The translations under genes and the position numbers were made by a program. A stretch of DNA of 64,000 nucleotides, taken from contig JBHLKM010000014.1 in the NCBI GenBank assembly GCA_048886685.1, forward strand, positions 32,001 through 96,000. The letters run 5' to 3'. Source of the stretch: Candidatus Hodarchaeota archaeon (GTDB lineage: Archaea > Asgardarchaeota > Lokiarchaeia > Sigyniarchaeales > SOKP01). Positions 54,541 to 64,000 of the stretch are shown in pieces (position 1 is the first letter of the stretch; every line of letters begins with the position of its first letter). The notes beneath the pieces were generated by a model that saw only the letters and a list, made by a program, of their open reading frames with translations, was not told the origin of the DNA and did not search any database.

Positions 54541-55989
54541 CTAATTACCTCCTAAATCAACTGGTTTATAGGTCATCATAGATTCATTGCCACGTTCTAT
54601 GTAAAAAAATTCAGCTTTTTCAGGTTTGAGCTTTTCTTTTAAATATCGAATAACCTGTAATCCTTTAGTAAACTCATCACAAATAAAAATATCTATGCTA
54701 ATATAACCGTGTTCCGGCCAAGTATGAATTGCTGCATGACTAGTTTCCAATACAGCAATAGCACTATACCCAAATGGTTGATAATTATGATGATAAATAT
54801 CAAGTACTGTTAGATTGGCTGATAGCAGTGAATTTATAAATATTTTTTGGATTAAATCATTGTTTAATAGTGTTTTTTGCTGTATAAAGCGTAATTCTCC
54901 AATAAAATGAAACCCAACAGGGAGAAATGGAGGTTTAGATTTCTTTTTTACTTCAGAGGTATAAATAGGACCAGAAGCGAATCTAAATTTATATTTAGAT
55001 CCGGGATCTGCTACAGTTTGTAAGTAGTAAAGATGAGAAAATTGTCCAATAATGCTAGCACCTTTATAATGATTGAAATCGGGAAGCATTTCTGTTATTA
55101 TAAATCCATGATCCAATATTGATAGCTGCAATTTTTGCATTTCATTTGGAGGTTTATTCCCAAAACTGAGAACACATTTTTTTCCAACAATGGGATAATT
55201 TTTATTATTTATCGTGATATTCGATTTTAATACTTGCTTTGCTCTTTTTAAGAACAATCTTAAACCTTCATTAGTATATGGTGGATCCATTACAGCTATA
55301 TCATATTTATTAAGGATATTTTTAGGGATAGGTTCTCTTAAATCATGATGGAGAACATTGAAATTATTTAAAGAGAGTTTCCTTGCAGTTTTTGAAAGAA
55401 AATTTAAAACTCTATCATCTATATCCACTACTGTAATTTCATTTGCTAATTTTGTCATTCCAACCGCCAAAGAAATGAAATCATCATCCCCTAAAAAAAT
55501 GATTCCTCTTCCCTCAATGTCTCCTTTTTTTAGTAAATACAGTGTTTTCTTAACTACTGTTGAAAAGTCTGCGTGAGATTGATCAAGAGCAAATTCTGGT
55601 GATGGTCGATTATCAAGATAATTTTTTATATTATTTAAATAAGAAAATTCATCAGATAATAATATATTCACTAAAAATTCTTTTATGATATTTTCAAAAT
55701 TCCCGGGTAGAGGATCATAATCGAATTTTAAATTCAGATTCGATTTTACCCACTCTCTCCCTTTTTGGCCAAGTAAATTTCTTCTCTCAATAATATCGGC
55801 TTTAACTAACTCATTCCTGACGGCAGCAAGCGAAGGAATTGCAATTCCTGTTTTTTGAGCCACCTTTTTATTTTTTAGAGAGGGAAATCGATACATTGTT
55901 AGAAGAATTGATCGAACACCTTCAATACCTTCGCTTAACTGTGCTCTCTCAGCGATTAATGTAAGTAACTTCTCTATTTCTAAATCCAT
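54541..55989 (-). CDS. Fusion: wHTH + branched-chain polyamine synthase (BpsA-like) + S-adenosylmethionine decarboxylase (SpeD-like)
   Basis: RP..DQ, GDIEG, FLGDDD, DID, DLREP, DPPYT (BpsA pattern); C-terminal GFH..PFGYS..LETSHAAIHTWPEHG..DIFIC (AdoMetDC pattern); start set at ATG 55989. Confidence 0.88.
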   Translation of the reverse strand: MDLEIEKLLTLIAERAQLSEGIEGVRSILLTMYRFPSLKNKKVAQKTGIAIPSLAAVRNELVKADIIERRNLLGQKGREWVKSNLNLKFDYDPLPGNFENIIKEFLVNILLSDEFSYLNNIKNYLDNRPSPEFALDQSHADFSTVVKKTLYLLKKGDIEGRGIIFLGDDDFISLAVGMTKLANEITVVDIDDRVLNFLSKTARKLSLNNFNVLHHDLREPIPKNILNKYDIAVMDPPYTNEGLRLFLKRAKQVLKSNITINNKNYPIVGKKCVLSFGNKPPNEMQKLQLSILDHGFIITEMLPDFNHYKGASIIGQFSHLYYLQTVADPGSKYKFRFASGPIYTSEVKKKSKPPFLPVGFHFIGELRFIQQKTLLNNDLIQKIFINSLLSANLTVLDIYHHNYQPFGYSAIAVLETSHAAIHTWPEHGYISIDIFICDEFTKGLQVIRYLKEKLKPEKAEFFYIERGNESMMTYKPVDLGGN

Positions 55990-56031
55990 TGTATAATAAT
56001 TATACAATTTACAATAATAATATTATACAAT
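55988..56031. promoter_or_regulatory. Perfect 10-1-10 palindrome at the fusion gene start plus a third half-site
   Basis: ATTGTATAAT-A-ATTATACAAT (55988-56008); extra ATTATACAAT at 56022-56031. Confidence 0.55.
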
Positions 56032-61004: not shown

Positions 61005-63503
61005 ATGGATGAAATTAAAGTTATTGGAGCAAGGATCCATAATCTTAAAAATATTAATGTTAATATCCCTAAGGGAAAAATAATCCTTATTACGGGAGTC
61101 TCAGGCTCGGGTAAATCTAGTTTAGCATTCGATATTATATTTGATGAAGGAATGAATAGATATCTTCAATCAATTGGCTTTCCCCCTAAATTTGAGGATG
61201 AAAAACCGTTTGATATGATTGAAGGATTAAGCCCAACGGTTGCAGTGGAGCAGAGAACCACACGAATCTTTAATCCTCGTTCTACTGTTGGAACAAAAAC
61301 AGGAATTTATGGGCTACTAAGAATGCTCTATGCTACTGAAGGTGTATTGATCTGTCCTATTTGTAAAGAGCCTGTTAATGAAAATTTGGAATGTGATATA
61401 TGCGGTATGGTCATAGAAAGAAAGCAAATTAAACATTTCTCATTTAATGAGCCCTCCGGCATGTGTCTGAATTGTAAAGGGAGAGGCTATACATTACATA
61501 TTACCGAAGAGATGATAGTTCAGGATTATAATCGAAATCTCATACAGATCACTAAAGCAGGTTCAGCAGTTTTCGCGGATCAAATTCGATTTGTTGAGCA
61601 ATTACCAAGCTTCTATAATTTTAATATTAACACACCTTTTAAGGATTTGCCTGAAGATGTTAAACAAGTCTTTCTATATGGGAGTGGGAAAAAACTTAAG
61701 TTTCAGTGGGAATCTAAAACTTTTAGTGGAGAATTGGAACGTGTGTTTGAAGGAATTATTCCACATATTAAAAGAGCTTTAATTGAAAGTAAGAGTGCAT
61801 ATAGAAGAAATAAAATCCATAAAAATTTCATGGCAAAACAAAAATGTGAGGAATGTGAAGGATATAGAATAAATGATCAAGCGAAAGAGATAAAAATTGG
61901 AGATAAACACATAGGAGAACTCGCAATGATGACTATTGATGAATTGATAGATTTCTTAGAAAATATGGATGAAGGGCATGTAAAAAGCCCTCAGGGTAAA
62001 TCAATGTTAGATAGTTTATTAGAAAGTTTAAAAAGGATGATTAATGTTGGTCTTTCTTATCTACACCTACATCGTTCCTTACCTACATTGAGTGGTGGGG
62101 AACTTCAGCGATTAGCTCTCATGACTCATTTAGATAGTGGTCTTGACTCGCTTATTTATATATTAGATGAACCCAGTATGAGTTTACATGAAAGAGAAAA
62201 GGAATCATTAATTAAAATATTAAAAAAGCTGAGAGATTTAGGAAATACAGTCATAATTGTTGAGCATGATAAGCATTTTATAAATATTGCTGATGAAATA
62301 ATCGATATTGGTCCAGGTGCAGGTGCGAATGGTGGTGAAATAGTATATCAAGGTTCACTTGGGGGGATCCAAAAAGTAGAAGAGTCATACACCGGTCAAT
62401 TTTTAGCTGGAAATATTAAATTACCTGAAAAATCGATTGAAGACCGCAAAAAAATTGATCAAGATACTAAATTCCTAACAATTAGAAGTGCTAAAACAAA
62501 TAACCTAAAGAATATTGAGGTAAAAATTCCATTGGGAATGATGATAGGGATTGCTGGTCTTTCTGGATCTGGGAAAAGTTCTCTCATATTAGATACTCTC
62601 GTTCCATTAATAACACCTTATTTCAAGAGGGGTGCCGATTTACCACAAAAGAAAACTGATAACAATGAGGACAGTGAGGAAAATGCAGAGGATCTTCTAG
62701 AATATTCTGGTGTTATAGAAGGATGGGATAATATTGATGGGATTATTGTAGTTAATCAAAAACCAATCTCTAGGGTAAGAACTTCCACACCTTGTTCTTT
62801 TATTAGTATCTGGGATAAAATACGGAATTTATTTGCAAAAACACAAGAAGCAAAGAAGAGAAAATACAAAGCAGGACATTTTTCTTATAATTCTGAAAGT
62901 GGGAGGTGCCCTTCTTGTAAAGGTACTGGTGAAACAGATCTACAAATATCATTTCTTAGCAGTTTTACAATCCCTTGTAGAGAATGTAAAGGTTTGAGGT
63001 ATAAACCAGAAATCTTGGAGGTGACTTATAAAGGTAAAACAATTTCAGAGGTGTTAGGTATGACGGTAAGTGAAGCATTAGGCTTTTTTAAATCTCAACC
63101 TAATATATCGAAAGTGCTAAAAATTCTTGATAAGATTGGCATGGGTTATATCACACTTGGACAGTCTGCTCCAACATTAAGTGGTGGTGAAGCACAACGA
63201 GTTAAGTTAGCAAAAGAATTAGGAAAAGCGCGTAAAGGAAATTACTTATATATCTTGGACGAACCTACAGTTGGTTTATCTTTCTACGATGCGGTAAAAC
63301 TAATGGAGTTGCTTGAACAATTGGTACAAGAAGGAAATAGTGTAATCATCATTGAACATGATCCAGATATTCTTGAATACACAGACTATATAATAGAATT
63401 AGGTCCAGAGGGAGGCCCAAAAGGAGGAGAAGTAATTGCGATTGGAACTCCCGAAGAAATTAAAAAAAATAAAAATTCTAAAACGGGTATTTATTTAAAT
63501 TAA
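61005..63503 (+). CDS. UvrA-like ABC ATPase lacking the UvrB-binding domain (UvrA2/DrrC-like)
   Basis: GARIHNLKN, two Walker A motifs (GxSGSGKS), two LSGGE signatures, Zn-binding CxxC pairs; 832 aa. Confidence 0.9.
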   Translation: MDEIKVIGARIHNLKNINVNIPKGKIILITGVSGSGKSSLAFDIIFDEGMNRYLQSIGFPPKFEDEKPFDMIEGLSPTVAVEQRTTRIFNPRSTVGTKTGIYGLLRMLYATEGVLICPICKEPVNENLECDICGMVIERKQIKHFSFNEPSGMCLNCKGRGYTLHITEEMIVQDYNRNLIQITKAGSAVFADQIRFVEQLPSFYNFNINTPFKDLPEDVKQVFLYGSGKKLKFQWESKTFSGELERVFEGIIPHIKRALIESKSAYRRNKIHKNFMAKQKCEECEGYRINDQAKEIKIGDKHIGELAMMTIDELIDFLENMDEGHVKSPQGKSMLDSLLESLKRMINVGLSYLHLHRSLPTLSGGELQRLALMTHLDSGLDSLIYILDEPSMSLHEREKESLIKILKKLRDLGNTVIIVEHDKHFINIADEIIDIGPGAGANGGEIVYQGSLGGIQKVEESYTGQFLAGNIKLPEKSIEDRKKIDQDTKFLTIRSAKTNNLKNIEVKIPLGMMIGIAGLSGSGKSSLILDTLVPLITPYFKRGADLPQKKTDNNEDSEENAEDLLEYSGVIEGWDNIDGIIVVNQKPISRVRTSTPCSFISIWDKIRNLFAKTQEAKKRKYKAGHFSYNSESGRCPSCKGTGETDLQISFLSSFTIPCRECKGLRYKPEILEVTYKGKTISEVLGMTVSEALGFFKSQPNISKVLKILDKIGMGYITLGQSAPTLSGGEAQRVKLAKELGKARKGNYLYILDEPTVGLSFYDAVKLMELLEQLVQEGNSVIIIEHDPDILEYTDYIIELGPEGGPKGGEVIAIGTPEEIKKNKNSKTGIYLN

Positions 63504-63588
63504 AATTTATGTATTTTGAATAACATTTAAGGTAATATCATTAAAAATTAGCAAGATAGAAAAATCGTTTTAGGAAATATTGATTTCG

Positions 63589-64000
63589 ATGCAAATAAAG
63601 ATTAAAGGAGCAAGAGAAAATAACTTAAAGAATATCGATGTAACATTTACTGATGGGTTAACTGTTGTTACTGGAATTTCTGGCTCAGGAAAATCATCTC
63701 TTGTTTTCGATACATTATATCATGAGTCCAATCGTCGATTAATAGAATTATTCGGTTATAGTCGTAAATGGTCAGCTCAGAGATCTTCTTATAAACTTGC
63801 TCCTGCTAAGGTTGGATCGATAATCGGGTTAGGACCCGCAGTTGCTGTAGGTCAAAATTTACTTAATAGAAATCCAAATTCTACATTAGCTACGGCATCA
63901 GGGTTACACCCTTTATTTAGATTACTCTATGCAAGGTTTGGGGTAAGAAAGTGCCCTAAATGCGGGGCCAATATAACCATCCTTACTCAAGATGAAATAA
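63589..64000 (+). CDS. Second UvrA-like ATPase, 5' part (runs off the window; not in ORF track)
   Basis: MQIKIKGARENNLKNIDV..TGISGSGKSSLVFDTLY..NPNSTLAT..RLLYARFG..CPKCG. Confidence 0.9.
   Translation, partial: MQIKIKGARENNLKNIDVTFTDGLTVVTGISGSGKSSLVFDTLYHESNRRLIELFGYSRKWSAQRSSYKLAPAKVGSIIGLGPAVAVGQNLLNRNPNSTLATASGLHPLFRLLYARFGVRKCPKCGANITILTQDEI

What the first reader, a model, noticed from the sequence alone, without database searches (positions are those of the whole stretch)
54541..55989. Branched-chain polyamine synthase fused to its own SAM decarboxylase (wHTH-BpsA-SpeD)
Seen: one uninterrupted ORF with an N-terminal HTH-like segment, a full BpsA-type aminopropyltransferase pattern (DQ..GDIEG..FLGDDD..DID..DLR.P..DPP) and, in the last ~125 aa, a pyruvoyl AdoMetDC pattern (SH..IHTWPE..DIFxC). 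Known: BpsA uses decarboxylated SAM to make N4-branched polyamines and is characterised from (hyper)thermophiles. AdoMetDC makes that donor after self-cleavage at Ser. The fusions I know join AdoMetDC N-terminally to spermidine-synthase-type enzymes, not C-terminally to BpsA. Inference: a self-supplying branched-polyamine enzyme in a probable Asgard archaeon. After autocleavage the beta chain would stay attached to BpsA. The residue before the scissile Ser is Thr (LET-SH), not the usual Glu, so processing or substrate could differ; AdoMetDC homologues acting on Arg or Orn are known.
Basis: partly seen in the sequence, partly recalled or inferred. Interest (0 to 1): 0.85.

Follow-up and report, generated by a model that had tools for sequence, protein, structure and literature searches.

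The report
BpsA-like aminopropyltransferase fused to SAM decarboxylase
An Asgard archaeon makes, as one protein, the enzyme that produces an aminopropyl donor and an enzyme that should spend it; the fusion is real, common and undescribed, but the second enzyme is probably not the heat-adapted branched-polyamine synthase it resembles, and its product is untested.

Summary
Confirmed: one minus-strand ORF (55989-54541, 482 aa) joins a BpsA-family domain (Pfam 151 bits) to a C-terminal pyruvoyl AdoMetDC (TIGR03330 above cut-off). The 'wHTH' is BpsA's own N-terminal domain, not a third partner. The fusion occurs in 56 of 125 genomes of this Lokiarchaeia family, in other Asgard lineages and, independently, in Vagococcus, Enterococcus and Erysipelothrix. 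I found no paper on it; this scan noted it before on other DNA. The decarboxylase keeps all processing residues and the AdoMetDC proline; Thr before Ser is family-wide and occurs in processed enzymes. The transferase belongs to a large 'DPPY' subfamily found in mesophiles. It keeps the donor site but lacks BpsA's acidic polyamine pocket, the Trp-Tyr316 loop and most of the acidic carrier tail, so 'branched-polyamine synthase' is not supported (about 20%). SpeD pairs with it where SpeE is missing (48 of 56 fusion genomes; 15 of 17 Bacillota). Best reading: a self-supplying aminopropyltransferase (about 80%), most likely making a linear triamine (about 40%); an anionic acceptor such as a lipid head group is about 25%.

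The parts
54541..55989 (-). Whole gene, 482 aa BpsA-like/SpeD fusion (P0001)
55729..55989 (-). Residues 1-87, winged-helix N-terminal domain native to the BpsA fold; lacks the CxxC site that follows it in canonical BpsA
55012..55653 (-). Residues 113-326, Rossmann-fold aminopropyltransferase domain of the DPPY subfamily
55480..55491 (-). GDDD motif (167-170), equal to Tk-BpsA G157-D160, which positions the dcSAM aminopropyl group; invariant in 120 homologues
55276..55287 (-). DPPY motif (235-238); canonical BpsA has DPP[E/D]
54949..54969 (-). Residues 341-347 (PIYTSEV), remnant of the acidic carrier tail; only Glu346 is acidic; low-confidence, probably flexible
54586..54921 (-). Residues 357-468, class 1b pyruvoyl AdoMetDC (SpeD) domain with Ser409, His422, Trp424, Pro425, Glu426 and Cys437
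54739..54741 (-). Ser417 codon, predicted self-cleavage and pyruvoyl site (T416/S417)

Best explanation
A self-supplying aminopropyltransferase. The C-terminal SpeD domain cleaves itself at T416/S417 into a 47 kDa transferase-plus-beta chain and a 7.7 kDa pyruvoyl alpha chain, and decarboxylates SAM (inferred, about 80%). The BpsA-like domain binds the dcSAM through its conserved DQ, GDDD and DPP residues and transfers the aminopropyl group (inferred, about 85%), perhaps relaying it on the single remaining tail Glu346. Its acceptor pocket is smaller and less acidic than BpsA's, so the product is probably not N4-bis(aminopropyl)spermidine. The most likely single acceptor class is a short amine this genome can make (agmatine, putrescine or homospermidine), giving a linear aminopropylated polyamine without SpeE (about 40%). 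Shown: domain content, motif conservation, phyletic coupling. Inferred: every activity.
For: Donor-site residues invariant in 120 of 120 close and nearly all 243 subfamily sequences. SpeD processing residues S417, H422 and C437 (T. maritima S63, H68, C83) are kept, as are both prolines of the conserved core. The fused domain is the only SpeD found in the genome. In 149 Lokiarchaeia genomes SpeD occurs in 68, of which 67 carry a DPPY-type gene, while SpeE occurs in 9; 48 of 56 fusion genomes have no SpeE found. NspC was not found in 22 Asgard genomes. In Bacillota, SpeE passed cut-off in 2 of 17 genomes where speD adjoins or is fused to the gene, against 33 of 33 where it does not. SpeD fused to this subfamily several times independently. 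The genome has a separate pyruvoyl arginine decarboxylase and an agmatinase-like gene, so the fused SpeD is not needed for that step.
Against: No activity was measured. The subfamily co-exists with SpeE in 33 of 33 other Bacillota and in this genome, which is redundant if it is only a spermidine synthase. A Lys/Arg at position 279 in 217 of 243 members fits a polycation poorly. Neighbours in other lineages point to lipid or acyl-carrier chemistry. Coupling to SpeD shows donor use, not the acceptor. The genomes are related and partly incomplete, and three Bacillota genomes were only partly scored.
Confidence: 0.45

Rival explanations
1. Same self-supplying chemistry, but the acceptor is not a polyamine: an anionic group (phosphate or carboxylate), for example an archaeal phospholipid or its precursor, receives the aminopropyl group.
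For: Three acidic features of BpsA are replaced: DPP[E/D] becomes DPPY, the E259 loop acid is deleted with K/R nearby in 217 of 243, and the tail acids are reduced. Sister fusions in the same Asgard clade sit in lipid gene clusters: inositol-1-phosphate synthase, UbiA, fusion, CTP_transf_1 in 8 loci, and fusion plus phosphatidylserine decarboxylase, with a CDP-alcohol transferase in two of three cases. About 24 of 80 Bacillota loci read BpsA-like, GNAT, FkbH-like HAD, usually followed by an acyl carrier protein. BpsA chemistry already forms aminopropyl esters.
Against: None of these lipid genes was seen beside 26 fusion loci of this Loki family (mostly 1.5 kb flanks). Phosphatidylserine decarboxylase was not found in 0/47 and 0/40 genomes of the two main fusion-bearing genera. 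The 8 Ino1-UbiA loci are one genus, so not independent. I know of no such archaeal lipid (own knowledge).
Confidence: 0.25
2. One reading: a true branched-chain polyamine synthase making N4-aminopropylspermidine or N4-bis(aminopropyl)spermidine in a non-thermophile.
For: BpsA is the closest solved fold over residues 2-337. Equivalents of Tk D159, D160, D225 and Y290 are kept, and one tail Glu is conserved (119 of 120).
Against: Separate clade from canonical BpsA. The E259 equivalent is absent, the roughly 20-residue loop bearing Trp-Tyr316 is deleted, and the five-acid carrier cluster is reduced to one acid. Most carriers have no recognisable spermidine source. In the five genomes tested, reverse gyrase was found with canonical BpsA (2 of 2) and not in the three DPPY-type genomes. 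Branched polyamines are reported from thermophiles.
Confidence: 0.2
3. The SpeD-like domain is not an AdoMetDC: it decarboxylates ornithine or arginine, decarboxylates an aminocarboxypropyl adduct made first from SAM (as in microcin C maturation, own knowledge), or fails to process.
For: Thr at -1 is shared with SpeDC ornithine decarboxylases. Canonical Glu at -1 is absent in all 120 close homologues.
Against: The SpeDC Gln, Phe and Tyr positions hold Ala412, Thr423 and Ser431; HTWPE is intact. Sister fusions of the same SpeD clade read E-S, then S-S, then T-S, a simple drift. The genome has PdaD already and would otherwise lack dcSAM for two aminopropyltransferase-like genes.
Confidence: 0.1

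Closest known systems
BpsA, N4-bis(aminopropyl)spermidine synthase (EC 2.5.1.128; T. kodakarensis TK1691, PDB 5xnc; T. thermophilus 6j27; Pfam PF01861)
   Same: Fold including the N-terminal winged helix; DQ, GDDD, DxD, DPP and FNxY donor-site motifs.
   Different: DPPY instead of DPP[E/D]; E259 loop acid lost, Lys nearby; Trp-Tyr316 loop deleted; acidic tail reduced to one Glu and internal; no CxxC; fused SpeD; host lacks reverse gyrase.
Class 1b AdoMetDC/SpeD (T. maritima TM0655, PDB 1tlu; TIGR03330)
   Same: Above family cut-off; S55, S63, H68, W70, E72 and C83 equivalents kept, F49 as Tyr.
   Different: Thr rather than Glu before the scissile Ser; beta chain carries a 356-residue N-terminal extension.
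AdoMetDC-aminopropyltransferase fusions of Ca. Pelagibacter (PMC11107197)
   Same: Donor-making and donor-using enzymes in one chain; AdoMetDC half shown functional.
   Different: There SpeD is N-terminal and the partner is SpeE-type; here SpeD is C-terminal and the partner is BpsA-like.
SpeDC/SpeDA neofunctionalised ornithine and arginine decarboxylases (PMC10407285)
   Same: T-S cleavage junction, as in SpeDC.
   Different: Three of four SpeDC diagnostics absent; prolines that SpeDA tends to lose are present.

Membership tests
[quoted passage not shown] | PF01861 domain and BpsA fold | tested here: met
   150.6 bits; Z 25-27 to 2qm3, 5xnc, 6j27
[quoted passage not shown] | GDDD motif (D159/D160), D225, Y290 | tested here: met
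   D168-D170, D235, Y308 invariant
[quoted passage not shown] | Acceptor-activating E259 and Y316 | tested here: not met
   By sequence alignment: acid deleted, N278/K279 in its place; loop with Trp-Tyr316 deleted
[quoted passage not shown] | C-terminal acidic carrier cluster (five acids in Tk-BpsA) | tested here: not met
   IYTSE against LYDDEE; one Glu left and no free C-terminus. The cluster is also shorter in some canonical-type Asgard proteins, so this test alone is soft.
[quoted passage not shown] | Groups with characterised BpsA in a tree | tested here: not met
   Lies in a clade of 175 DPPY-type sequences (FastTree support 0.90) apart from DPPE/D proteins; Tk-BpsA represented by a close Asgard proxy
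[quoted passage not shown] | Makes N4-branched polyamines by a ping-pong mechanism | not testable with these tools
   Needs enzymology
Class 1b AdoMetDC (SpeD) | Family HMM above cut-off | tested here: met
   TIGR03330 98.1 vs 75.65; PF02675 98.1 vs 25
Class 1b AdoMetDC (SpeD) | Processing residues Ser, His, Cys and the diagnostic Pro | tested here: met
   S417, H422, C437; P405 and P425 both invariant (the paper's figure was not visible, so both candidates were checked)
Class 1b AdoMetDC (SpeD) | Glu at -1 (E-S-H) | tested here: not met
   Thr in 118 of 120, Ser in 2; not required for processing in SpeDC
Class 1b AdoMetDC (SpeD) | Self-cleavage and SAM decarboxylation | not testable with these tools
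   Needs expression and assay
SpeDC ornithine decarboxylase | Diagnostic Gln, Thr, Phe, Tyr | tested here: not met
   Only Thr; positions inferred from the validated sequences in Fig. S5 of PMC10407285

The most novel reading that the evidence does not exclude
The DPPY subfamily is a widespread, unrecognised class of aminopropyltransferase acting on a non-polyamine anionic acceptor, and in Asgard archaea the fusion makes an aminopropylated membrane lipid head group that has not been described.
Probability: 0.2. Interest if true: 0.85.

Novelty: new variant of a known kind. Interest (0 to 1): 0.55.

Why it matters
A 2026 review states that bpsA orthologues are strikingly restricted to thermophiles and mentions neither Asgard archaea nor fusions (PMC12979288). 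Here BpsA_C proteins occur in 188 of 398 Asgard genomes and in many ordinary Bacillota, mostly as a divergent subfamily annotated as branched-polyamine synthases on no evidence I could find. In most Lokiarchaeia that make dcSAM at all, including P. syntrophicum MK-D1 (unfused genes, no SpeE or NspC found), this is the only recognisable dcSAM consumer. It therefore bears on how relatives of the eukaryotic host make polyamines or modify lipids. Fusions in culturable Vagococcus, Enterococcus and Erysipelothrix, and ordinary E. coli deletion strains, make it directly testable. The fusion itself, two consecutive pathway enzymes joined, has precedent.

Tried and rejected
Assembly artefact or one-off: rejected. 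wHTH as a separately acquired regulator: rejected, it is part of the BpsA fold. Palindrome over the start codon as an autoregulatory operator: present, but not conserved upstream of 25 related fusions, and 37 of 600 AT-rich 100-mers of this genome have an arm as long. Fusion as the essential spermidine source for hypusination: DHS is in 147 of 149 genomes but SpeD in 68, so the gene looks dispensable. Fusion built from MK-D1-type parts: not supported, those genes lie in other branches of both trees. A search for standalone close relatives of the SpeD domain returned only short pieces of the same family, mostly on short contigs. Growth temperature from composition was inconclusive (IVYWREL 54 C, confounded by 31% GC). 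The IQ-TREE run timed out, so trees are FastTree only. Okada 2014 and the T. maritima complex paper were not held. No complex prediction was run.

Full report
Observation. The gene is on the minus strand, 55989 to 54541, 482 aa. Pfam places BpsA_C at 118-333 (150.6 bits) and AdoMet_dc at 361-467 (98.1 bits). NCBIfam TIGR03330 passes its cut-off, and the best PDB matches are T. kodakarensis BpsA and T. maritima SpeD. An AlphaFold2 model (mean pLDDT 80, pTM 0.50) shows three compact units with low-confidence linkers at 87-102 and 329-349. Structural alignment covers residues 2-337 with solved BpsA, so the winged helix belongs to BpsA and the protein is a two-enzyme fusion.

Distribution. The best 120 homologues all carry both domains, and the named ones are almost all labelled Promethearchaeota or Lokiarchaeota. 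In 149 genomes of the class, 56 of 125 in the window's family carry the fusion; sister families carry a BpsA-like gene and a separate SpeD. These include Promethearchaeum syntrophicum and Ca. Harpocratesius repetitus. More distant fusions occur in Hodarchaeales-, Heimdall- and Odin-labelled proteins and in Vagococcus fluvialis, Erysipelothrix and Enterococcus. Trees of the two domains broadly agree on one Asgard fusion clade (support 0.92 in the SpeD tree, 0.75 in the transferase tree), apart from the Bacillota fusions, so the fusion arose several times. Across the phylum, 188 of 398 genomes have a BpsA_C protein.

The decarboxylase half. Equivalents of T. maritima S55, S63, H68, W70, E72 and C83 are kept, and F49 is Tyr. 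The -1 residue is Thr in 118 of 120 homologues; the -2 Glu of this protein is not conserved (Lys in 86). PMC10407285 gives four residues diagnostic of SpeD-derived ornithine decarboxylases and a proline that separates AdoMetDC from arginine decarboxylases. Its supplement shows validated, processed ornithine decarboxylases with an E-T-S junction. Thr therefore need not block cleavage, and the other three diagnostics are absent here. Within the Asgard clade the junction runs E-S, S-S, T-S. This is the only SpeD found in the genome, which also has a pyruvoyl arginine decarboxylase and an agmatinase-like gene. I put true AdoMetDC activity at about 80% (inference). Cleavage would give 47.4 and 7.7 kDa chains.

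The transferase half. Canonical BpsA also exists in Asgard archaea: one (E 4e-116 to 5xnc) lies in a speD-agmatinase-bpsA-speE cluster, and the two such genomes tested have reverse gyrase, which G000, G092 and MK-D1 lack. The window's protein is not of that type. It falls in a clade of 175 DPPY-motif sequences. Against the mechanism summarised in PMC12979288, it keeps D159, D160, D225 and Y290 equivalents. It lacks the E259 acid, with Lys or Arg nearby in 217 of 243 subfamily members. It lacks the roughly 20-residue loop carrying Trp-Tyr316, and keeps one of five carrier acids. These mappings come from sequence alignment; I matched the tail by pattern because the review's numbering differs by two from the PDB chain. 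The donor site is conserved and the acceptor site is remodelled, so it works like BpsA on the donor side but should not be filed as a branched-polyamine synthase.

What it is coupled to. In Lokiarchaeia, 67 of 68 genomes with SpeD have a DPPY-type gene, while SpeE is in 9 of 149, and NspC was found in none of 22 Asgard genomes tested. Among 80 Bacillota loci (mostly mesophilic Clostridium, Tissierella and Paenibacillus), 16 have speD directly downstream and 2 are fused. SpeE passed cut-off in 2 of 17 such genomes tested and in 33 of 33 others. This supports dcSAM use. It does not identify the acceptor: the gene may replace SpeE, or may simply carry its own donor supply where no speDE exists. 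Kin are not independent, and three genomes were only partly scored.

Acceptor. For a linear polyamine: agmatine and putrescine are available here, no other spermidine route is found in most carriers, and the branched-product pocket is gone. For a non-polyamine: acidic pocket residues are replaced, the gene co-exists with SpeE, and sister fusions sit in lipid gene clusters, while Paenibacillus copies precede GNAT, FkbH-like and acyl carrier genes. The Loki genera with this fusion show no such neighbours, and no phosphatidylserine decarboxylase was found in them. My odds: linear polyamine about 40%, anionic or lipid acceptor about 25%, branched polyamine about 20%, decarboxylase not an AdoMetDC about 10%. 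The best-explanation confidence of 0.45 allows for unlisted short amines.

Novelty. Searches of the held literature found no description of the fusion or the subfamily; subscription papers are not covered. Known fusions put SpeD N-terminal to a SpeE-type enzyme. This scan has noted the same fusion in other genomes, and one earlier follow-up also concluded that the transferase is not thermophile BpsA. I had recorded that reading before seeing those notes, and they are not independent evidence. Verdict: a real, widespread, uncharacterised variant of a known kind; interest 0.55.

Noticed in passing
G000:C22:34481-36501 (L001:6482-8502): A second, very divergent BpsA-like gene directly upstream of speE. 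The two are found on one contig in 8 of 149 Lokiarchaeia genomes (adjacent in all five inspected) with no speD found beside them.
   Followed up: partly
L067-L070 (Asgard family f18): Standalone SpeD directly upstream of a DPPY-type gene has Thr in place of the pyruvoyl-forming Ser (KE-TH) in all four loci: either a non-pyruvoyl cofactor or an inactive enzyme.
   Followed up: no
L051, L078-L083, L091, L092; L090 unfused: Conserved cluster inositol-1-phosphate synthase, UbiA, BpsA-like/SpeD fusion, CTP_transf_1 in one Asgard genus; the first two also precede an unfused copy in another family.
   Followed up: partly
L053, L055, L098: Fusion followed by phosphatidylserine decarboxylase, and in two cases a CDP-alcohol phosphatidyltransferase.
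   Followed up: partly
L114, L121, L122, L128, L133, L151 and others: Operon BpsA-like, GNAT, FkbH-like HAD, acyl carrier protein in about 24 of 80 Bacillota loci; product unknown.
   Followed up: partly
L071-L077 (Asgard family f13): DPPY-type proteins without an intact GDDD (GDSD in L073) sit head to head with a PLP-dependent Orn/DAP/Arg decarboxylase-family gene.
   Followed up: no
window 55988-56031: AT-rich inverted repeat (arm 10) over the start codon; not conserved in relatives and near background frequency.
   Followed up: yes
G000:C12:106662-108451 and G000:C3:318169-320004: Two deoxyhypusine synthase homologues, one next to an agmatinase-like gene and one head to head with pyruvoyl arginine decarboxylase; one may make homospermidine.
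   Followed up: partly
P0194, P0201, P0202, P0217, P0220, P0221: A separate clade of BpsA-like/SpeD fusions whose SpeD domain lacks the usual SH..H motif, possibly degenerate.
   Followed up: no
G051:C11:402639-402870: Only broken N-terminal pieces of the fusion gene were found, suggesting a pseudogene in one genome.
   Followed up: no
window 61005-63999: Two tandem UvrA-like ABC ATPase genes, judged from the translations only.
   Followed up: no
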